From a virus (lineage: Duplodnaviria > Heunggongvirae > Uroviricota > Caudoviricetes): a DNA stretch of 10,778 bases. The stretch lies in the IMG/VR virus record IMGVR_UViG_2579779002_000007, positions 1 to 10,778 of that record; one strand, written 5' to 3'. A model generated the notes under the pieces. That model did not search any database, was not told the origin of the DNA, and was given only the letters and a program-made list of their open reading frames with translations. This document shows, piece after piece, positions 2-10,778 of the stretch. The first letter of the stretch is position 1, and each line of letters starts with the position of its first letter. The position numbers and the translations under genes were made by a program.

Positions 2-319
2 GATGAACTGCGGCGTAAGAAAATCAGCGCGCTTATCCCTCCCCGAAAAGGTGCGGGCTACTGGCCCGGTGAATATGCAGACCGTAACCGTGCAGTGGCT
101 AATCAGCGAATGACCGGGAGTAATGCGCGGTGGAAATGGACAACAGATTACAACCGTCGCTCGATAGCGGAAACGGCGATGTACCGGGTAAAACAGCTGT
201 TCGGGGGGTCACTGACGCTGCGTGACTACGATGGTCAGGTTGCGGAGGCTATGGCCCTGGTACGAGCGCTGAACAAAATGACGAAAGCAGGTATGCCTGA
301 AAGCGTGCGTATTGCCTGA
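2..319 (+). CDS. IS903-family DDE transposase, C-terminal fragment (5' end truncated by window edge)
   Basis: Frame 2 is open from the window start to TGA at 317-319. The listed 74-aa ORF (95-319) is only the part after an internal Met. Recalled similarity to the IS903 transposase C-terminus. Confidence 0.85.
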   Translation, partial: DELRRKKISALIPPRKGAGYWPGEYADRNRAVANQRMTGSNARWKWTTDYNRRSIAETAMYRVKQLFGGSLTLRDYDGQVAEAMALVRALNKMTKAGMPESVRIA

Positions 320-375: not shown

Positions 376-442
376 CCCCCAATGGCAACCACTCAACCTC
401 AACCCCATCCAGCAATTTTTCCAGATAACTCATCTCGCTCAT
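376..442 (-). pseudogene. hsdS: Type I R-M specificity subunit hsdS, 5' remnant (about 22 codons) truncated by the IS903-family insertion
   Basis: Minus-strand ATG at 442-440 overlaps the hsdM stop (ATGA). Translation [23 protein letters not shown] matches the conserved N-terminus of type IC HsdS proteins, then runs directly into the IS terminal repeat at 375. Confidence 0.6.
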
Positions 443-2001
443 TTCTGCACCTCGCAGCCTTCAATTTCAGCCACAATCGCATCAATATCTTTGCGCAACT
501 GGTCGATTTTGCTGACCGTGGTTTTCAGTTCTGCATTCAACTCAGCGATATCGATAATTTCGCGAGTATCTTTCGCTTCCACATAGCTGCTCACTGACAG
601 GTTATAGTCATTAGCGACAACGGTCTCAAACGCGACAGATTTCGCCAGATGAGCAACATCTTCCTTGCTGGCAAATACCTGCATAATCTGTTCGATATGG
701 GCATCGGTCAGGATATTGTTGTTAGTCTCTTTTTTGAATAGCTCGCTGGCGTCAATAAACTGAACGTTGGTATCGGTTTTATGTTTAGACAGCACCAGAA
801 TGTTTACGGCAATGGTGGTGCCAAAGAACAGGTTCGGAGCCAGTGAAATCACGGTTTCGACATAGTTATTATCGACCAGATACTGACGGATTTTCTGCTC
901 CGCGCCGCCACGGTAAAAAATACCCGGGAAGCAGACAATCGCAGCACGACCTTTGGCCGAAAGATAGTTCAGCGCATGTAATACAAACGCAAAGTCAGCT
1001 TTGGATTTGGGGGCCAGAACGCCAGCCGGGGCAAAACGTTCATCGTTAATCAGCGTCGGGTCATCGCTGCCAATCCATTTCACCGAATACGGCGGGTTAG
1101 AAACGATGGCATCAAACGGTTTTTCATCTCTGAAGTGCGGTTCAGTCAGCGTATTGCCCAGCTTGATATCAAACTTGTCGTAGTTGATGTTGTGCAAAAA
1201 CATGTTCATACGCGCCAGGTTATAGGTCGTATGGTTGATTTCCTGACCAAAAAAAACTTCTTCGATGATATGGTCATCAAACTGTTTTTTAGCCTGCAAC
1301 AACAGCGAACCGGAGCCTGCTGCCGGGTCGTAGATTTTGTTAACGTGGGGCTGCCCGTGCATAGCCAGTTGTGCAATCAGCTTGGAGACGTGTTGCGGTG
1401 TAAAGAACTCGCCGCCTGACTTACCGGCATTCGCCGCATAGTTAGAAATCAGGAACTCATAGGCATCGCCAAACAGGTCAATCTGATGTTCATTGAAGTC
1501 ACCAAGTTTTAACCCTTCAACCCCTTTCAGAACCGCAGCCAGGCGGGCATTTTTATCCTTAACGGTGTTACCCAGGCGGTTACTGGTGGTATCGAAATCA
1601 GCAAACAAACCTTTGATGTCAGCTTCTGAAGGGTAACCGTAAGCAGAGCTTTCGATAGCAACGAAGATACTGTTTAAATCTGCATTCAGTCTGTCATTGG
1701 TATTTGCTTTCGCAGCTACGTTGCAGAAAAGCTGACTTGGGTAGATGAAGTAGCCTTTGGTTTTGATGGCATCGTCTTTAATGTCATCAGTAATTACGCT
1801 GTCATCCAGTTTCGCATAACAGATGCTGTCATCACCGGCTTCAATATAGCTGGAAAAATTTTCGCTGATAAAACGGTAGAAAAGTGCGCCCAGAACGTAT
1901 TGCTTAAAATCCCATCCATCGACCGAACCCCTGACATCGTTAGCAATTTGCCAGATTTGACGATGAAGCTCTGCACGTTGTTGAATACTTGTCATTTTCA
2001 T
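439..2001 (-). CDS. hsdM: Type I restriction-modification N6-adenine DNA methyltransferase subunit HsdM (EcoR124I-like, type IC)
   Basis: 520-aa ORF with AdoMet motif I ([10 protein letters not shown]) and catalytic motif IV (NPPY, in SNPPYSVKW). The N-terminus [17 protein letters not shown] and the 520-aa length match my recollection of EcoR124I HsdM. The stop overlaps the hsdS start. Confidence 0.9.
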
Positions 2002-2399: not shown

Positions 2400-2779
2400 T
2401 GAGGCATATATCACCGGAAGAACTTATTGCGCTTCATGATGCGAATATAAACCGCTACGGCGGCCTGCCGGGAATGTCAGATCCGGGTAGGGCAGAGGCC
2501 ATTATCGGGAGAGTTCAGGCCAGAGTTGCCTACGAAGAGATCACCGACCTTTTCGAAGTCTCCGCCACCTACCTGGTGGCTACGGCGAGAGGGCATATAT
2601 TCAATGATGCCAATAAGCGTACCGCGCTAAACAGTGCGCTGTTATTTCTACGCCGTAACGGGGTGCAGGTATTTGATTCACCTGAACTGGCAGACCTTAC
2701 CGTAGGGGCTGCGACTGGCGAGATATCTGTATCTTCTGTCGCCGCCACGTTACGTAGATTGTATGGTTCTGCGGAGTAG
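2399..2779 (+). CDS. doc: Doc toxin (death-on-curing; Fic/Doc-family kinase), 126 aa
   Basis: 126-aa product with the Fic/Doc core [11 protein letters not shown], recognised as P1 Doc; translationally coupled to phd. Confidence 0.9.
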
Positions 2780-2783
2780 ATTA

Positions 2784-2963
2784 ATGGCACGCAAATACAA
2801 CAAATTGTCCCGTGAAGCGTTAAAGATGCTTCTTGATGGCGTGAGTCGCCGCAAGGTAAAGCAATACCTGGTTGGTAAGCAAATTGGTGCCAGGACCGCT
2901 ATTGCTGTGTTATGCCGTCAGGAAATGGCTGTGCTTAAACAGAGAATGCCGGGCAGCAGATAA
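2784..2963 (+). CDS. pdcA: PdcA-like small protein (post-doc gene A), probable helix-turn-helix protein
   Basis: ORF immediately after doc. ATG at 2784 has a GGAG RBS at 2773-2776; the longer listed ORF starts at 2763 inside doc. Position matches P1 gene order phd-doc-pdcA-pdcB. Function unknown. Confidence 0.5.
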   Translation: MARKYNKLSREALKMLLDGVSRRKVKQYLVGKQIGARTAIAVLCRQEMAVLKQRMPGSR

Positions 2964-2990
2964 AGCCCAATCAGTGATTAAAGGTGTGAT

Positions 2991-4034
2991 GTGAAAGCCG
3001 TAATTACTCCCTTTGTACAGAAAGAGCTTGGCCTCGCCACGTTCAAAGTGGATCAGGAGGTCAGAAAGCTGGTGGAGGCTGGCCGTAAATTTATTATGGA
3101 GCCGGTGCCGCGTGAGTTAATCGAGCACATGGAAGACGGCCTCGTTGTTACCGAGCAAACCATGGCAACAAATGAGGCGTTGCAGCCGTTTTTTAACAGC
3201 GATGAACTGTTTCGCCGTATTGGTGGAATTGACGCGCTGGTGGCGTGGTTGCGTAGGAAAGAGGGTCAATGCCAGGCCGCAGATCGTAGTTGGTGTGACA
3301 ACCATATTGTCCACGCTGAACGAGACAATAGCGCTGTGTTGTTGTGCTGGCATCACGATAACCATTACCGGATGCGTGGTTTTAATGAGCTGAAAGAAAC
3401 GCTGCACAATAATCGCGTTAACTGGATACTGGATGTCGCCCGTCAGGAAATGGGCCTTTCAAATAGCCATGATTTAAGTATTCAGGAGCTGTGCTGGTGG
3501 GCTTTCATGCGCAACATGATGCACCTGATGCCGGAAGAAGTCTGCCGCATATCAATAAATAAGATGAAGGCTACTCCGCAGGATAGCGGACCTCTGAAAG
3601 AGGCGGATATTCGCCCGTATGACGATCGCGCTACAGCATATGTTCAGATGATGGAAGAACGCGCCGCGCCGATGCGTGCAAAAGTATGCCCTGTGGATGT
3701 TGACTCCGACCCAGGTATGGCGCATTTCAAAATACCAAAACTTCAATCGCTAAAATTGCCCGAGTACATGGACTTTGTGGCTTCCCGTCCATGCTGTGGC
3801 TGTGGAGCTGCGGGAGCTGGCGCTCACATTACGCCTTATATCGTTCGTCATAGTCGATTATGCGCGCATGACATTTATGCTATTCCTCTGTGCCAGTCAT
3901 GCCAGCGTGATATTGAGCGTGACCGCGATAATTGGGAGAAGACGCACGGCAGGCTGGCGATGCATCAACGATTGTTCTTTGATTACGCGCTTGGAGTCGG
4001 CGCTATCACAAGTCACTCGTCGAGCGTTAGATAA
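2991..4034 (+). CDS. pdcB: PdcB-like protein (post-doc gene B), 347 aa, with two Cys/His-rich HNH-like motifs
   Basis: 347-aa ORF with GTG start and AAGG RBS. Position matches P1 pdcB. Contains [15 protein letters not shown]…[10 protein letters not shown] (aa 94-125) and CCGCG…AHITPYI…IPLCQSCQR (aa 268-306). Confidence 0.6.
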
Positions 4035-4035
4035 A

Positions 4036-4052
4036 ATTGCTCTAATGTATTG
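4036..4052 (+). promoter_or_regulatory. C1 repressor operator-like site upstream of lpa
   Basis: ATTGCTCTAATGTATTG matches the recalled P1 C1 operator consensus ATTGCTCTAATAAATTT at 14 of 17 positions (first 11 perfect). Lies directly after the pdcB stop and upstream of lpa, which is known to be C1-controlled in P1. Confidence 0.45.
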
Positions 4053-4122
4053 CTATTTCTTTAATCAAGGGTATTATATTCGTCGTTGATTAGTTGACAT
4101 GGGCTAATCAGTAGGTGACAGG

Positions 4123-4575
4123 ATGTTACTTAACTGGCAGGGACGCCACTTCATGGAAATAAATCACTCACGAATAACATCGTACGAGATTGCGGATTAC
4201 ATGATCCGCACTAAATCTCTTCTATCAGCGAAAGAACTCGCAGCAATTCTTGAAAAGGAATACCCGCATCTGGATGTCGATAAGCGCGATGTTTATCTGC
4301 GCTTAAAGGCTATCGCTGTGTCTAAGTATTCGTCTGTTTTGATTGATGACAGTACACGCCCACGTAGATTTCAGATCCACTCTCTGAATCCTGAATTCTT
4401 TCGCCGTAGCCGCGCTCCGCGCCGGTTTGATGAAAAACTCCAGAACGAACTCTATATGACGCAGGACGAAAAGGAACGCCGGGAGCACCAGCCTTGGGTA
4501 ATGGCGCGTCAACTTTTCAATAAGGTGGCCCGTCAGCACCGTCATTACGGTAATGCCACATCCGCACGTATCTGA
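4123..4575 (+). CDS. lpa: Lpa-like late promoter activator (P1 gene 10)
   Basis: 150-aa basic protein in the conserved position between pdcB and pacA, preceded by a C1 operator-like site. The start may instead be the internal ATG at 4153. Confidence 0.65.
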   Translation: MLLNWQGRHFMEINHSRITSYEIADYMIRTKSLLSAKELAAILEKEYPHLDVDKRDVYLRLKAIAVSKYSSVLIDDSTRPRRFQIHSLNPEFFRRSRAPRRFDEKLQNELYMTQDEKERREHQPWVMARQLFNKVARQHRHYGNATSARI

Positions 4576-4584
4576 TTGATTGCT

Positions 4585-4606
4585 TGCCCGTTCCGGGCCT
4601 TTTGAC
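4585..4606 (+). terminator. Weak hairpin/attenuator-like structure after lpa (GCCCG-TTC-CGGGC followed by CTTTTG)
   Basis: 5-bp GC stem at 4585-4589/4593-4597 with a 3-nt loop and a short T-tract. Overlaps a perfect TTGACA hexamer at 4601-4606. Confidence 0.3.
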
Positions 4607-4661
4607 ATGTGACTTTCGTTACCCTCGCGTCAAAAAGAGTTTTATACGAAAGGAAGCATAA

Positions 4662-5855
4662 GTGACCTGGGACGATCACAAGAAGAATTTTGCTCGCCTG
4701 GCGCGAGATGGTGGTTACACCATCGCACAATATGCCGCCGAGTTTAATCTCAACCCAAACACCGCACGTCGTTATCTCCGTGCATTCAAAGAAGACACCG
4801 GAACAGCGGACAGCCGTAAGCCAAATAAGCCTGTCAGAAAACCACTAAAAAGCATGATCATTGATCACGCTAATGATCAACGTGCAAGTGATCACATTGT
4901 GGCTGAAATGGCTGAAAAACAAAGAGTTAATGCTGTTGTCAGTGCCGCAGTCGAGAACGCTAAGCGCCAAAATAAGCGCATAAATGATCGTTCTGATGAT
5001 CATGACGTGATCACCCGCGCCCACCGGACCTTACGTGATCGCCTGGAACGCGACACCCTGGATGATGATGGTGAACGCTTTGAATTCGAAGCTGGCGATT
5101 ACCTGATAGATAACGTTGAAGCGCGGAAGGCCGCGCGCGCTATGTTGCGTCGATCCGGGGCCGATGTTCTGGAAACCACTCTTCTGGAAAAGTCTCTTTC
5201 TCATCTCCTTATGCTGGAGAACGCCAGGGATACGTGTATTCGCCTGGTGCAGGAAATGCGCGATCAGCAAAAAGACGATGATGAAGGTACTCCGCCTGAA
5301 TACCGTATCGCGAGCATGCTAAACAGCTGTTCCGCGCAGATAAGCAGTCTGATCAACACCATTTACAGCATCCGGAATAACTATCGAAAAGAAAGCCGGG
5401 AGGCGGAAAAGCACGCTTTGTCTATGGGGCAAGCTGGCATTGTTAAGCTGGCATACGAACGAAAGCGTGAAAATAACTGGTCAGTGCTGGAAGCAGCTGA
5501 ATTCATCGAGGCGCATGGCGGGAAAGTGCCGCCCCTGATGCTGGAGCAAATCAAAGCCGATCTGCGTGCTCCTAAGACCAATACCGATGATGAGGAAAGG
5601 CAAACAGCCGTCGGTGGCCCTTCTCTTGAAGATCTGGACAAAGTTGCGCGAGAACGGGCCGCCAACCGCCGCGCCGATGCCGCATTGTGGATTGAGCAGC
5701 GTAGGGAAGAAATCGCCGATATCGTTGATACAGGCGGTTATGGAGATGTTGATACTGAAGGTGTATCAAACGACCCATGGCTGGAACAAGACCTGGACGA
5801 AGACGAGGAGGAAGACGAAGAAGTTACCCGCAAGCTATACGGGGATGATGATTAA
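4662..5855 (+). CDS. pacA: PacA, P1-type terminase pac-recognition (small) subunit, 397 aa
   Basis: GTG start with AAGGAAG RBS; 397 aa, matching P1 PacA length. The pac site hexamer repeats lie inside the 5' part of the ORF as in P1. Stop overlaps the pacB ATG (TAATG). Confidence 0.85.
4855..5014. other. pac: pac packaging site: 4 + 3 hexanucleotide TGATC(A/G) elements, each carrying a Dam GATC site
   Basis: TGATCA at 4855-4860, 4862-4867, 4874-4879 and 4889-4894 (left cluster). TGATCG at 4985-4990, TGATCA at 4998-5003 and 5009-5014 (right cluster). Matches the known P1 pac architecture with cleavage between the clusters. Confidence 0.7.
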
Positions 5856-7339
5856 TGGCCAGAAGTTGCGTAACGGATCCACGTTGGCGCGAGTTGGTGG
5901 CGCTATATCGTTATGACTGGATTGCGGCCGCTGATGTTTTGTTCGGCAAAACACCTACCTGGCAGCAGGATCTGATTATTGAGTCTGTGCAGGAACAGGG
6001 TAGCAAGACATCTGTTTCGTCTGGTCACGGTACCGGGAAATCAGACATGACTTCTATCATGATCATGTTGTTCATAATCATGTATCCCGGTGCCCGTGCC
6101 ATTATCGTTGCGAACAAAATTCAGCAGGTAATGACCGGTATATTCAAGTACATCAAGATAAACTGGGCTACGGCCACCAGCCGTTTTCCGTGGCTTGCTG
6201 ATTATTTTGTTCTGACAGAAACCGCTTTTTATGAAGTTACTGGTAAAGGTGTATGGACTGTAGTACCGAAGGGCTTTCGTCTGGGAAGTGAATAAGCTCT
6301 CGCAGGTGAACACGCAGATCATCTTCTGTATATTATCGATGAAGCCTCCGGTGTCAGTGATAGAGCTTTCGGTATCATCACCGGTGCTCTTACCGGACAG
6401 GATAACCGCATCTTATTGCTGTCACAGCCTACACGCCCAAGCGGCTATTTCTACGATACTCACCATAAACTGGCCAAGCGTCCTGGTAACCCTGATGGCG
6501 TTTATACGGCGATCACGCTTAACAGTGAGGAATCACCGCTGGTAACGCCAGCATTTATCAAAATGAAGCTGGCGGAGTACGGCGGGCGTGATAACCCTAT
6601 GTACATGATTAAGGTACGCGGACTATTCCCTAAATCACAGGATGGCTTCCTTCTTGGACGTGATGAGGTTGAACGTGCGACGCGGCGGAAAGTCAAGATT
6701 GCCAAAGGATGGGGCTGGCTTGCATGTGTGGACGTTGCTGGTGGTACGGGACGGGATAAGTCCGTTATCAATATCATGATGGTGTCCGGCCAGAGAAATA
6801 AACGCCGTGTAATCAACTATCGAATGCTGGAATACACAGACGTTACAGAAACGCAGCTTGCCGCCAAAATTTTCGCAGAATGTAATCCTGAGCGATTCCC
6901 AAATATCACCATAGCGATAGACGGCGATGGCCTGGGTAAAGCAACGGCGGATCTGATGTACGAGTATTATGGTATTACCGTACAGCGTATACGCTGGGGT
7001 AAAAAGATGCATAGCCGTGAAGATAAGAGCCTGTACTTTGATAAACGTGCTTATGCCAACGTTCAAGCCGCAGAGGCCGTAAAATCTGGTCGTATGAGAC
7101 TGGATAAGGGTAATGAAACTATTGAGGAAGCGTCGAAAATCCCTGTAGGGATTAACTCCGCGGGTCAATGGAAAGTGATGAGTAAGGAGGATATGAAGAA
7201 AAAACTCAACCTGCACTCACCAGACCATTGGGATACATATTGTTTCGCTATGCTGGCGGATTATGTTCCTCAGGATGAAGTGCTTAGCGTCGAAGACGAA
7301 GCGCAGGTTGATGAAGCTCTGGCATGGCTTAATGAATGA
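5855..7339 (+). pseudogene. pacB: PacB-like large terminase subunit, 494 codons in total, interrupted by an in-frame TAA at codon 147 (6293-6295)
   Basis: ORF-track pieces 5855-6295 and 6416-7339 are in the same frame. Hand translation of 6296-6415 is open and encodes the Walker B-like segment [15 protein letters not shown]. Walker A (SGHGTGKS) lies upstream of the stop. Total length of 1485 nt equals the expected P1 PacB size. Confidence 0.7.
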
Positions 7340-7359: not shown

Positions 7360-7484
7360 TGTTTTTTAACTACCGATGTTACATTGAACCTGACCTCTTG
7401 CGCCTTGAGGCATTTTCGGTTTATGCTTATCAGGCACCTCATTAAAACGGGTGCCGGGATTGAGACCCCGGATAATGCAAAAGG

Positions 7485-7519
7485 CGACACAGACGCCAAA
7501 AGCGTCTTTTTTTGTGTCA
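7485..7519 (+). terminator. Rho-independent terminator after the pac operon
   Basis: Stem AGACGC (7491-7496) / GCGTCT (7502-7507), loop CAAAA, followed by a T7 run (7507-7513). An outer GACACA/TGTGTC pair extends the hairpin. No U-tract on the opposite strand. Confidence 0.55.
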
Positions 7520-7555
7520 TGCCATCGCACAGCCATACGTAGCGTTTAGCTCAGA

Positions 7556-7648
7556 GATCAATGGTAGTGCTGGCTGGGCTGCCGAAAGGCAGGCCGGTTC
7601 CCTTTTGCGCCGGTAGTCTCAACCCAGTCAGTGCTACCGCCATTGAGA
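7556..7648 (+). ncRNA. c4: c4-like antisense RNA candidate (immI-type translational repressor, tRNA-like fold)
   Basis: 7-bp long-range stem TCAATGG (7558-7564) / CCATTGA (7640-7646) encloses a CTGGG/CCCAG helix, a GNRA hairpin (CTGCC-GAAA-GGCAG, 7579-7592) and a hairpin (CCGG 7594-7597 / CCGG 7610-7613) whose 12-nt loop contains CCTTTTGC (7601-7608), perfectly complementary to GCAAAAGG (7680-7687) at the icd RBS. Boundaries are approximate. Confidence 0.4.
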
Positions 7649-7698
7649 TTGAGACCTCACGCGGTAGCTCCTTAAATTAGCAAAAGGAGGCTGCCATT

Positions 7699-7920
7699 GT
7701 GGCTACTATCCCTACCCCTGCTCATTCTGAATTTATCTGGCGCTTTTACTCCTGCCAAAAACGTCACTATCACTTCGTTATTGCACCGACAGAAGATGAG
7801 GCACGTTCTCAGCTTCCGGATGCTCCCTGTATTTTCTCTGCCCGCTTTTCTACCGATTCGCGCAATTCTCTCAGTTACTGGTGCCTCCCTATTAACGCTT
7901 CTGCTCAGGAGGGACTATGA
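7699..7920 (+). CDS. icd: Icd-like small protein (interference with cell division), 73 aa
   Basis: GTG start 8 nt after AAGGAGG (7684-7690). 73 codons matches the recalled size of P1 Icd. Stop overlaps the ant ATG (ATGA), consistent with translational coupling. Frame choice is uncertain. Confidence 0.45.
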   Translation: MATIPTPAHSEFIWRFYSCQKRHYHFVIAPTEDEARSQLPDAPCIFSARFSTDSRNSLSYWCLPINASAQEGL

Positions 7921-9029
7921 GAACGTCATTAGTCACCCGTGAAGAGATGATCGAGGCAATTGAACAGCACACTGCCTGTATCAGTACCAGGGATATACCG
8001 GGCGTTATTGCCAACTACTTCATGATCACCAAACAACTTTACCGGAGAAAGGACAAACACGCGGTTCACCGCATTCTGCTAACCGATATCCGTGAATACC
8101 TGCTCGAACAGGGTCATCTGAATTACGCAACCGTCGCAGCCGAAGCACGCAAGGAGGCACACAGAATGAAAGCAACTAACGTTAAATCAGAAAAAATTTA
8201 TGCACCTTCAGTTCAGGAATCGGAACTGGTGGTTGTTCAGAATCAGCCGGATGAAATTCCCGTTCTGGAATGGCAGGGAGTACGTGTCGTGACAACCGAA
8301 ACTCTTGCTAGAGGGTATGGGGTCGATGAAGCCAATATTCGCAACAATTTGTCTCGCAACCTTGACCGCTTTGAAGAAGGTAAGCATTACTTTCTTCTAA
8401 CTGGTTTAAAATTAAGAGAATTTAAGAACAGAGTAACCGGAAGTTACTCTGTTGGTAAGAACGCCAGAAGCCTTACACTCTGGACAGAGCGCGGCGCTGC
8501 ACGCATGTCTAAGATCGTGGACACAAATGAAGCATGGGCATTCTTTGAAAAACTGGAAGACAGCTACTTCCGGCAAAAAGAACAGCAACCGGTTGCAATC
8601 CCCCAAACATTACCAGAAGCCCTACGCCTGGCTGCCGAACTGGCTGAACAAAAGCAGCTTCTGGAACAGAAAGCCCACCAGCTAAATCAGCAGCTGGTAG
8701 CCGCCGCTCCTAAGGTCGATTTTGCCGACCGGGTATCAGTAGCTAAAGGGATCCTGATTGGGAATTTTGCAAAGGTTGTTGGACTTAAGCAAAACGCGCT
8801 GTTTGCCTGGTTACGGGAGAACGGCATCCTGATAGCGTCCGGTGGACGTAAAAATGTGCCGTTCCAGCAGTACATCAACGCGGGGTATTTCACGGTGAAA
8901 GAAGTGGTGCTGGATGATGAAGATGGCTACCAGATACGGTTGACGCCTCAATTAACGGGTAAAGGCCAGCAGTGGTTGACGCGTAAACTGCTCGATGCTG
9001 GCTTGTTAAAACCGGTGGCGGCTGAATAA
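7917..9029 (+). CDS. ant: Antirepressor Ant (Ant1, 370 aa), N-terminal Ant/ORF6N-like domain plus C-terminal KilA-C/ANT domain; nested in-frame Ant2 start at 8166
   Basis: Central segment VLEWQGVRVVTTETLARGYGVDEANIRNNLSRNLDRFEEGKHYF and C-terminal segment GNFAKVVGLKQNALFAWLRENGILIASGGRKNVPFQQYINAGYFTVKEV are typical of phage antirepressor domains. Internal ATG at 8166 (Met84) is preceded by a perfect AAGGAGG at 8151-8157. Confidence 0.75.
   Translation: MRTSLVTREEMIEAIEQHTACISTRDIPGVIANYFMITKQLYRRKDKHAVHRILLTDIREYLLEQGHLNYATVAAEARKEAHRMKATNVKSEKIYAPSVQESELVVVQNQPDEIPVLEWQGVRVVTTETLARGYGVDEANIRNNLSRNLDRFEEGKHYFLLTGLKLREFKNRVTGSYSVGKNARSLTLWTERGAARMSKIVDTNEAWAFFEKLEDSYFRQKEQQPVAIPQTLPEALRLAAELAEQKQLLEQKAHQLNQQLVAAAPKVDFADRVSVAKGILIGNFAKVVGLKQNALFAWLRENGILIASGGRKNVPFQQYINAGYFTVKEVVLDDEDGYQIRLTPQLTGKGQQWLTRKLLDAGLLKPVAAE

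Positions 9030-10316: not shown

Positions 10317-10778
<462 letters not shown>

What the first reader, a model, noticed from the sequence alone, without database searches (positions are those of the whole stretch)
3270..3908. PdcB contains two degenerate HNH-like Cys/His motifs and sits directly upstream of the lpa-terminase block
Residues 94-125 ([15 protein letters not shown]-…[10 protein letters not shown]) and 268-306 (CCGCG-…-AHITPYI-…-IPLCQSCQR) both follow the HNH pattern of a Cys pair, then His-Ile-x-Pro, then Asn/His…Leu-Cys-x-x-Cys. HNH nucleases are recurrently encoded next to terminase genes in phages. As far as I recall, pdcB is a gene of unknown function in P1, so a duplicated HNH-like or zinc-ribbon fold would be a testable prediction for the post-doc genes.
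Basis: inference. Interest (0 to 1): 0.45.

Follow-up and report, generated by a model that had tools for sequence, protein, structure and literature searches.

The report
P1 PdcB: twin HNH-fold protein, degenerate
The phage P1 gene pdcB encodes a member of the known YdfU/DUF968 family with two zinc-held, nuclease-like (HNH-fold) modules, but the P1 lineage has lost the residues that do the cutting, so it is probably a DNA-binding accessory protein and not a nuclease that helps DNA packaging.

Summary

**C-terminal motif.** It lies in a strong Pfam DUF968 match (E 4.6e-50). That family is already placed in the His-Me finger (HNH) superfamily, and RefSeq already calls pdcB "HNH endonuclease". 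This half is known.

**What is new.**
- In 97 lambdoid relatives the C-terminal module carries the full catalytic set (HH...CH...H). In the P1 lineage that set is gone: A278, position 279 variable, Q305, position 309 variable. The zinc cysteines are kept, and purifying selection is strong (dN/dS about 0.05-0.15).

**Terminase idea.** It is not supported. Relatives sit next to Q in lambdoid nin regions, pdcB, lpa and pacA have separate promoters, and pdcB is dispensable.

**Verdict.** Observation confirmed, interpretation partly supported. This is a degenerate variant of a known family, of modest interest.

The parts
2991..4034 (+). pdcB coding sequence (GTG start, 347 aa, TAA stop at 4032-4034)
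   Evidence: ORF list. 98.7-99.1% nucleotide identity to P1/SJ46 pdcB. PHROG 96 matches over the full length, E 2.4e-128.
3156..3566 (+). N-terminal domain core (residues 56-192): a helical bundle carrying a zinc-bound beta-beta-alpha unit. No sequence profile recognises it as HNH.
3270..3365 (+). N-terminal Cys/His motif (residues 94-125). Proposed zinc ligands are C94, C102, C119 and H122. D123-N124 sits at the first turn of the helix.
   Evidence: Predicted strands 106-111 and 114-119, helix 120-129. Positions 102 and 122 are (H,C) in 96, (C,H) in 32, (H,H) in 14 and (N,C) in 1 of 143 sequences, never (C,C). C94, Q95, C119 and W120 are invariant in 111 sequences.
3471..4001 (+). Pfam DUF968 (PF06147) match, residues 161-337
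   Evidence: E 4.6e-50, 170.4 bits against a cut-off of 27.8.
3792..3908 (+). C-terminal HNH-type motif (residues 268-306). Zinc ligands C268, C271, C301 and C304 are kept, as is the H293-D294 pair. The catalytic positions are degenerate: A278, H279, Q305, E309.
   Evidence: Predicted strands 281-284 and 297-300, helix 302-310. Column counts. HMM alignment to the canonical clade. hhalign to YbcO pairs H279 with YbcO H32.
4036..4077 (+). C1 operator Olpa (4036-4052, ATTGCTCTAATGTATTG) and promoter Plpa (4050-4077). They start a separate transcription unit for lpa immediately after pdcB.
   Evidence: P1 record annotation transferred by position. A promoter-like site lies at 4050-4077. Sequence.
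4123..4575 (+). lpa (late promoter activator), the downstream neighbour
   Evidence: Pfam BPP1_LPA, E 3.1e-57.
4662..5855 (+). pacA (terminase/pacase A subunit). In P1 it is transcribed from the late promoter LPpac.

Best explanation
**Architecture.** PdcB is the P1-lineage member of the YdfU/DUF968 phage protein family. It has two zinc-stabilised beta-beta-alpha (His-Me-finger, i.e. HNH-fold) modules joined by helices.
- The N-terminal module has proposed ligands C94, C102, C119 and H122. It is visible only by structure prediction.
- The C-terminal module is the recognised DUF968 module, with ligands C268, C271, C301 and C304.

**Ancestry.** In lambdoid relatives the C-terminal module has the complete HNH catalytic set. 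That set comprises an HH doublet on strand 1, a His after the second Cys pair, and a His four residues further on. The gene sits between the replication genes and the late regulator Q. The ancestral protein was therefore most likely a nuclease acting on replication or recombination DNA (inference; also the hypothesis of PMC5714182).

**P1 lineage.** The fold and the zinc sites are preserved under strong purifying selection, but the catalytic set is gone. The first His is Ala. The general-base position is H, R, Q, N or deleted. The metal-binding His is Gln. The +4 His is variable.

**Most likely function.** P1 PdcB no longer cuts DNA with its DUF968 module. It most likely acts as a non-catalytic DNA-binding accessory protein. 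It is dispensable in the laboratory but kept in natural P1-like phage-plasmids.

**Shown versus inferred.** Shown: fold, conservation pattern, loss of catalytic residues, selection, synteny, dispensability. Inferred: zinc binding, DNA binding, lack of nuclease activity.
For: **Family membership.** Pfam DUF968 E 4.6e-50. PHROG 96 over the full length. 431 homologues, colinear over 98% of the length at 25-30% identity. [quoted passage not shown]

**Fold.**
- The full-length AF2 model shows beta-beta-alpha at both motifs.

**Loss of catalytic residues.** In 97 canonical sequences H279 is present in 97, H305 in 96 and H309 in 97. In 13 P1-clade sequences position 279 is R5/Q3/N2/gap2/H1, position 305 is Q in all 13, and position 309 is A/E/S/V/R. 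The HMM alignment and hhalign to YbcO agree. The canonical profile aligns weakly (E 0.27) to the IscB HNH over the same columns.
- Canonical relatives also hit the Pfam families HNHc_6, YbcO and RecA_dep_nuc and other HNH PHROGs.
- PdcB hits none of these.

**Zinc sites.** C268 and C301 are invariant. C271 is kept in 108 of 111 sequences. Position 304 is Cys in all 14 P1-type sequences and C70/H25/E2 in the 97 canonical ones. Positions 102 and 122 are Cys or His in 142 and 143 of 143 sequences.

**Selection.** pN is 0.07-0.29 against saturated pS of 0.43-0.88. dN/dS is 0.04-0.23 in every region. pdcB is among 21 'extremely conserved' genes in 77 P1-like phage-plasmids (PMC9603915).

**Dispensability.** CRISPRi plating efficiency 0.68, scored non-essential (PMC10695390). 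pdcB::kan phages are viable and form stable lysogens.
Against: - P1 itself, and this window, does carry His at the general-base position 279. YbcO also has an 'AH' rather than an 'HH'. Gln305 could conceivably bind a metal ion. Residual activity in P1 proper is therefore not excluded.
- The N-terminal motif is very strongly conserved in the P1 clade (C102-D103-N104 and H121-H122-D123-N124-H125 are invariant). It could be an unconventional active site.
- No coordinates could be inspected, so residue equivalences rest on sequence and profile alignments plus DSSP strings.
- The alignment between C271 and H293 is ambiguous. One MAFFT run placed the canonical HH opposite Y283-I284.
- DNA binding has not been tested.
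Confidence: 0.55

Rival explanations
1. PdcB is an active HNH-type endonuclease, as RefSeq and PHROG label it. It would cut either with a non-canonical C-terminal site (H279 with Q305, H293-D294) or with the remodelled N-terminal site (D103, H121, H122, D123, N124, H125).
For: - Family membership and fold.
- H279 is present in P1 and in the window. It aligns to the catalytic His of YbcO and, weakly, IscB.
- Q305 is invariant in the P1 clade.
- The N-motif residues are invariant in the P1 clade, and D/E123-N124 is conserved across the family at the helix N-terminus, where His-Me fingers place their metal ligand.
- Purifying selection is strong.
Against: - The general-base position is R, Q, N or deleted in 12 of 13 P1-clade representatives, and R in a 98%-identical variant, P0003.
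- The metal-binding His and the +4 His are lost in every P1-clade member.
- Position 103 of the N module, the only candidate general base by position, varies across the family: H/D/S/T/M/I/A/F.
- PdcB fails to hit any other HNH profile that its canonical relatives hit.
Confidence: 0.25
2. One reading: PdcB is a terminase-associated HNH protein of the HK97 gp74 type. It would assist PacA/PacB in cutting or packaging DNA.
For: The order pdcB-lpa-pacA-pacB is conserved in the divergent P1-like elements where the contig reaches that far. pdcB-lpa also holds in a relative of only 37% identity.
Against: - There is no match to Pfam HNH PF01844.
- PdcB is 347 aa with two modules, unlike the small (about 100-130 aa) terminase-associated HNH proteins (size from my own knowledge).
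- lpa, with its own C1-controlled promoter, lies between pdcB and pacA. pacA uses a late promoter.
- Canonical relatives lie in the nin region next to Q, far from terminase. One such prophage carries a separate PF01844 HNH gene at the far end of the fetched contig.
- pdcB is non-essential, whereas lpa, pacA and pacB are essential in the same screen.
- The catalytic residues are lost.
Confidence: 0.05
3. PdcB is a non-catalytic zinc-finger regulator tied to late gene expression. The family's gene always sits directly upstream of the late activator: Q in lambdoid phages, Lpa in P1-like phages.
For: - A DUF968 gene lies immediately upstream of Q in 3 of 3 lambdoid loci.
- It lies immediately upstream of an Lpa homologue in 6 of 6 P1-like loci, including a relative of 37% identity.
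- There is precedent for inactive His-Me fingers recruited as DNA-binding transcription factors, namely Smad MH1 (PMC5714182).
Against: - The adjacency may only reflect conserved module order (end of the early operon before the late regulator).
- Late functions are essential, but pdcB knock-down has little effect.
- There is no direct evidence of specific DNA binding.
Confidence: 0.1

Closest known systems
YdfU (E. coli Qin prophage) and other lambdoid 'DUF968 domain-containing' proteins, Pfam PF06147
   Same: Colinear over 98% of the length at 25-30% identity. Same two-module architecture, same zinc-ligand positions, same invariant H293-D294 and C94-Q95 / C119-W120. The P1 GenBank record itself notes 25% identity to P76162.
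   Different: - Canonical members have HH...CH...H in the C module and mostly H98/H102-H103/C122 in the N module. The P1 clade has lost the C-module catalytic histidines and has D98/C102-D103/H122 instead.
- The genomic context is a lambdoid nin region next to Q, versus a P1-like plasmid-prophage next to lpa.
YbcO (DLP12 prophage, PDB 3g27; Pfam DUF1364/YbcO), His-Me finger group 7
   Different: YbcO is a single 96-aa module and keeps the metal-binding His (CSACH). PdcB has Gln there, has a second module, and is 347 aa.
P1 Ref (RecA-dependent HNH nuclease, PDB 3plw)
   Different: Only 10-16% identity in the structural alignment, with no significant sequence match. The best sign is RecA_dep_nuc at E 0.08, seen only in a canonical relative. 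That Ref is an active HNH nuclease, as its Pfam family name (RecA-dependent nuclease) and PMC5714182 describe, comes from the literature and was not tested here.
Terminase-associated HNH proteins (HK97 gp74 type, Pfam PF01844)
   Same: Same superfamily fold. PdcB is encoded on the same side of the genome as the packaging genes.
   Different: No PF01844 match, different size and architecture, a separate transcription unit, non-essential, and catalytic residues lost.
Catalytically inactive His-Me fingers (Smad MH1, Enpp nuclease-like domain)
   Same: The fold is retained while the catalytic His is lost. These are proposed to keep ligand or DNA binding (PMC5714182).
   Different: No homology beyond the superfamily. 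The PdcB case is in a phage and involves two modules in one chain.

Membership tests
Pfam DUF968 (PF06147) / YdfU family | Match to the PF06147 profile above its gathering score | tested here: met
   170.4 bits against a cut-off of 27.8, E 4.6e-50, residues 161-337 covering the whole 171-position profile.
Pfam DUF968 (PF06147) / YdfU family | Full-length colinearity with YdfU-like proteins, including the N-terminal region outside the Pfam model | tested here: met
   98% query coverage for more than 100 homologues. PHROG 96 covers residues 1-340 of 347.
His-Me finger (HNH) superfamily - fold | Beta-beta-alpha core with structural similarity to solved HNH nucleases | tested here: met
- Foldseek found nothing significant.
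His-Me finger (HNH) superfamily - active nuclease | Nearly invariant catalytic His on the first beta strand (PMC5714182) | tested here: not met
   - C module: the position is H in 97 of 97 canonical sequences but R5/Q3/N2/gap2/H1 in the P1 clade. P1 and the window carry H279, but it is not conserved.
- N module: the candidate position 103 is D in the P1 clade and variable across the family.
His-Me finger (HNH) superfamily - active nuclease | Asn or His in the first turn of the alpha helix that binds the catalytic metal, often with a polar residue at +4 or +8 (PMC5714182) | tested here: not met
   - C module: H305 is present in 96 of 97 canonical sequences and is Q in 13 of 13 P1-clade sequences. 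H309 is present in 97 of 97 and is A/E/S/V/R in the P1 clade.
- N module: D123-N124 occupies this place. Asp or Glu is not the usual ligand there.
His-Me finger (HNH) superfamily - active nuclease | Metal-dependent cleavage of nucleic acid | not testable with these tools
   Needs purified protein. No published assay for PdcB or YdfU was found.
Zinc-knuckle HNH subtype | Four Cys/His ligands: two before strand 1 and two at the strand 2 / helix junction | tested here: met
   - C module: C268 and C301 are invariant, C271 is kept in 108 of 111, and position 304 is Cys in the P1 clade and C70/H25/E2 in canonical relatives.
- N module: C94 and C119 are invariant in the 111-sequence alignment, and positions 102 and 122 are Cys or His in 142 and 143 of 143 sequences.
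- Actual metal binding was not tested.
Terminase-associated HNH (HK97 gp74 type) | Small single-domain protein matching Pfam HNH PF01844 | tested here: not met
   No PF01844 hit even at E 10. The protein is 347 aa with two modules.
Terminase-associated HNH (HK97 gp74 type) | Encoded in and expressed with the packaging module, and required for genome cutting or packaging | tested here: not met
   Olpa/Plpa and LPpac separate pdcB, lpa and pacA. pdcB is non-essential while pacA and pacB are essential (PMC10695390). Relatives are in nin regions.

The most novel reading that the evidence does not exclude
The whole YdfU/PdcB family would be a tandem of two His-Me-finger modules, with an N-terminal one that no sequence profile detects. 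The P1-like lineage would be a natural 'double pseudo-nuclease': both modules keep their zinc scaffolds but have lost or remodelled their catalytic histidines. The protein would have been re-purposed for a non-cutting job next to the late activator Lpa. Candidate jobs are binding branched or damaged DNA, or blocking a host or rival nuclease.
Probability: 0.3. Interest if true: 0.5.

Novelty: new variant of a known kind. Interest (0 to 1): 0.35.

Why it matters
- **Annotation.** pdcB is one of the most conserved yet unexplained genes of P1-like phage-plasmids, which spread resistance genes. RefSeq currently labels it 'HNH endonuclease'. The analysis here suggests that label is over-confident for the P1 lineage, because the catalytic residues that justify it exist only in the lambdoid relatives.
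- **Family architecture.** The analysis adds an unrecognised second HNH-fold zinc module to the DUF968/YdfU family.
- **Experiments.** It gives concrete point mutations and paired proteins (P1 PdcB versus a canonical YdfU) for a clean test of nuclease loss.
- **Scope.** The practical impact is modest. This is a refinement of a known family, not a new system.

Tried and rejected
- **phmmer of PdcB against PDB sequences:** no hit even at E 10.
- **Family profile against PDB:** only a weak IscB HNH match, E 0.27, on the C module.
- **NCBIfam:** nothing meaningful.
- **PADLOC defence models:** no hit for PdcB, a canonical relative or PdcA.
- **hhalign, N motif against C motif:** probability 0.1-0.5%. 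There is no sequence evidence that the two modules arose by duplication.
- **hhalign, N domain against YbcO:** probability 0.5%. The suggested alignment is topologically sensible but not significant.
- **Pfam and PHROG scans of the N domain alone:** only its own families, PHROG 96 and 11007.
- **Apparent fusions:** the YdfU N-terminus appears fused to tail-tip, tail-fibre, portal or glycine-rich domains (P0039, P0051, P0054, P0081, P0082, P0136). I judged these to be assembly or deletion chimeras, not informative architectures. At least three of them (P0039, P0054 and the similarly truncated P0048) share one identical N motif and break at different points.
- **Mutual exclusion with RusA:** rejected, because phage cdtI has both.
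- **Pseudogene or relaxed-selection reading:** rejected by dN/dS.
- **Rfam and repeat scans:** no RNA or repeat element inside pdcB.
- **P1 genome paper (PMC523184):** not held in the library.

Full report
**What the window is.** The 10.8-kb window comes from a P1-like phage-plasmid. The stretch 2700-4700 is 98.7-99.1% identical to P1, P7 and Salmonella phage SJ46. The local gene order is phd (2172-2399), doc (2399-2779), pdcA (2763-2963), pdcB (2991-4034), lpa (4123-4575), pacA (4662-5855) and pacB (5855-7339), followed further on by c1 and coi.

**The observation.**
- PdcB has 347 residues. It is 100% identical to the SJ46 protein and 98.6-99.4% identical to P1 PdcB.
- The finding's coordinates 3270-3908 are exactly residues 94-306, and both quoted strings are present.
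- The pattern description is generous, though. The N-terminal string contains neither His-Ile-x-Pro nor Cys-x-x-Cys.

**What is already known.**
- Residues 161-337 match Pfam DUF968 (E 4.6e-50).
- PHROG 96, labelled 'HNH endonuclease', covers the whole protein (E 2.4e-128).
- RefSeq records of P1, P7, SJ46 and RCS47 already name the product 'HNH endonuclease'. The original P1 annotation says 'unknown protein function; 25 pct identical to P76162', which is YdfU.
- The systematic classification of His-Me fingers groups DUF968 with DUF1364/YbcO (PDB 3g27) as group 7. It proposes a recombination or repair nuclease role (PMC5714182).
- No experimental study of PdcB or YdfU function was found.
- pdcB is used as a neutral insertion site and scores as non-essential (PMC10067587, PMC10999674, PMC10695390).
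- It is nevertheless one of 21 'extremely conserved' genes in 77 P1-like phage-plasmids (PMC9603915).

**Homologues.**
- A single-sequence search found only P1-type orthologues of 65-99% identity plus one at 37%.
- A profile search found 431 homologues. Most are 'DUF968 domain-containing proteins' of enterobacterial prophages, colinear over 98% of the length at 25-30% identity.
- An exhaustive search of 1.8 billion representatives found 133 clusters.

**C-terminal motif.**
- In 97 canonical relatives the motif reads C-x2-C...DDPHH(I/L)IGHG...KAHD...IPLCR-x-CH-x3-H. H279 is present in 97 of 97, H305 in 96 of 97 and H309 in 97 of 97.
- That is the full His-Me catalytic set as defined in PMC5714182. 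It comprises a general-base His on strand 1 preceded by a metal-assisting residue, a metal-binding His in the first helical turn, and a polar residue at +4.
- The family profile aligns, weakly (E 0.27), to the IscB HNH over exactly these columns. The HH pairs with the IscB HH, whose second His I recall as the H247 used to inactivate the OgeuIscB HNH. That recollection is from memory and was not verified.
- The C-domain profile aligns to YbcO with hhalign probability 83.5% (E 8e-6). H279 pairs with YbcO H32.
- In the 13 P1-clade representatives the four cysteines (268, 271, 301, 304) and H293-D294 are all kept.
- The catalytic positions are not kept. Position 278 is Ala. Position 279 is R5/Q3/N2/deleted 2/H1. 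Position 305 is Gln in all 13. Position 309 is A/E/S/V/R.
- An HMM of the canonical clade aligned to the P1 clade gives the same result.
- His279 is found only in P1 proper, and a 98%-identical variant (P0003) has Arg there.
- A second MAFFT run aligned the HH opposite Y283-I284 instead. On either alignment there is no conserved His, and Y283 is Phe in one lineage.
- Consistently, canonical relatives also hit HNHc_6, YbcO, RecA_dep_nuc and three other HNH PHROGs, and PdcB hits none.

**N-terminal motif.**
- The motif is conserved across the family: C94-Q95, C119-W120 and N124 are (nearly) invariant, and position 123 is Asp or Glu in almost all.
- In 143 full-length homologues position 102 is His or Cys in 142, and position 122 is Cys or His in all 143. 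The combinations are (H,C) 96, (C,H) 32, (H,H) 14 and (N,C) 1, never (C,C).
- The simplest reading is a four-ligand zinc site made of residues 94, 102, 119 and 122. The P1 clade uses C, C, C, H.
- Position 103 is His in most canonical sequences (giving a 'YHH' look), Asp in the P1 clade, and H/D/S/T/M/I/A/F overall. It is therefore not a universal catalytic residue.

**Structure.**
- The full-length AF2 model (pLDDT 77.5, pTM 0.46) predicts strand-strand-helix at both motifs: 106-111 / 114-119 / 120-129 and 281-284 / 297-300 / 302-310.
- A separate model of residues 56-192, which excludes the C module, is confident (pLDDT 91.1, pTM 0.86).
- Sequence profiles do not see this relationship. hhalign gives probability below 1% for the N motif against the C motif and for the N domain against YbcO. 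A duplication origin is therefore unproven.
- Foldseek found nothing significant.

**Selection.** I compared the window gene with three divergent P1-like orthologues (L004-L006). Synonymous sites are saturated (pS 0.43-0.88) and pN is 0.07-0.29. Where it can be computed, dN/dS is 0.04-0.23 in every region, including the degenerate C module. The protein is functional and is not decaying.

**Genomic context.**
- Canonical relatives lie between replication genes and the antiterminator Q in lambdoid prophages.
- One such prophage also carries a separate PF01844 HNH gene at the far end of the fetched contig. Another carries RusA as well.
- In P1-like elements the order pdcB-lpa-pacA-pacB-c1 is conserved while the upstream genes differ, with no phd/doc.
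- A relative of 37% identity that also lacks the catalytic set is likewise followed by an Lpa homologue.
- In P1 the C1 operator Olpa and promoter Plpa start immediately after the pdcB stop codon, and pacA has its own late promoter. The same sequences are in the window at 4036-4077.
- pdcB is therefore a neighbour of the packaging genes but is not part of their transcription unit.

**Conclusion.** The C-terminal assignment is already in the databases. Three points are added here:
- a cryptic N-terminal module;
- the loss of the catalytic histidines in the P1 lineage under continued purifying selection, which makes 'HNH endonuclease' a doubtful functional label for P1 PdcB;
- rejection of the terminase-cofactor idea.

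I consider a non-catalytic, zinc-stabilised DNA-binding accessory role the most likely (about 0.55). A residual or unconventional nuclease activity is the main rival (about 0.25).

Noticed in passing
window 5855-7339 (stop codon at 6293-6295): pacB is interrupted by an in-frame TAA at codon 147. P1 has GAG at the same place. The reading frame continues unchanged to the normal end at 7339, so this copy encodes a truncated PacB (146 aa) unless the stop is a sequencing error or is suppressed. The closest intact relatives are RCS47 and vB_EcoM-673R5 pacB at 98.8-98.9% identity.
   Followed up: partly
window 7434-9029: An immI-like antirepressor module sits between pacB and c1, a position that is empty in P1 and in the divergent P1-like loci L004-L006. 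It comprises an Rfam isrK sRNA (7434-7512), a C4 antisense RNA (7557-7644) and a 370-aa ORF with ORF6N and ANT/KilAC domains (7917-9029).
   Followed up: partly
window 439-2001 (-): A 520-aa type I restriction-modification methylase (HsdM_N plus N6_Mtase, E 2.9e-121) lies just upstream of phd-doc. The P1 record notes that its phd-doc segment is 98% identical to plasmid sequence 'upstream of the EcoDXXI hsd locus'. This window seems to preserve that hsd-phd-doc linkage.
   Followed up: no
window 95-319 (+) and 10464-10742 (-): Fragments of DDE (IS5-like) transposase ORFs lie at both ends of the window. This suggests IS-bounded rearrangement of the region.
   Followed up: no
L001, L002/L003, L008 (lambdoid); window, L004-L006, L009, L010 (P1-like): The DUF968 gene lies immediately upstream of the late-gene activator in every locus examined. 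The activator is Q in lambdoid prophages and Lpa in P1-like elements. This may be mere module order or a functional link.
   Followed up: partly
proteins P0039, P0048, P0051, P0054, P0081, P0082, P0136 (database hits): The N-terminal 160-300 residues of a YdfU-like protein appear fused to portal, tail-tip J, tail-fibre or glycine-rich domains. At least three (P0039, P0048, P0054) share one identical N motif, so they are probably assembly chimeras or deletion junctions in cryptic prophages.
   Followed up: partly
proteins P0005, P0006, P0009 (92-98% identical to PdcB): Frameshifted PdcB variants of 365 aa exist in public assemblies. They switch to another frame from about residue 260-275, which removes the C-terminal zinc and HNH module.
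   Followed up: no
window 2915-2928 and 3440-3453: A perfect 14-nt direct repeat, CCGTCAGGAAATGG, has one copy in pdcA and one in pdcB. With only two copies it is probably chance.
   Followed up: no
window 2763-2963: pdcA (66 aa) overlaps the end of doc by 17 nt. It has no Pfam or PADLOC match, only PHROG 3345 (unknown function). It is absent upstream of pdcB in the divergent P1-like loci.
   Followed up: partly
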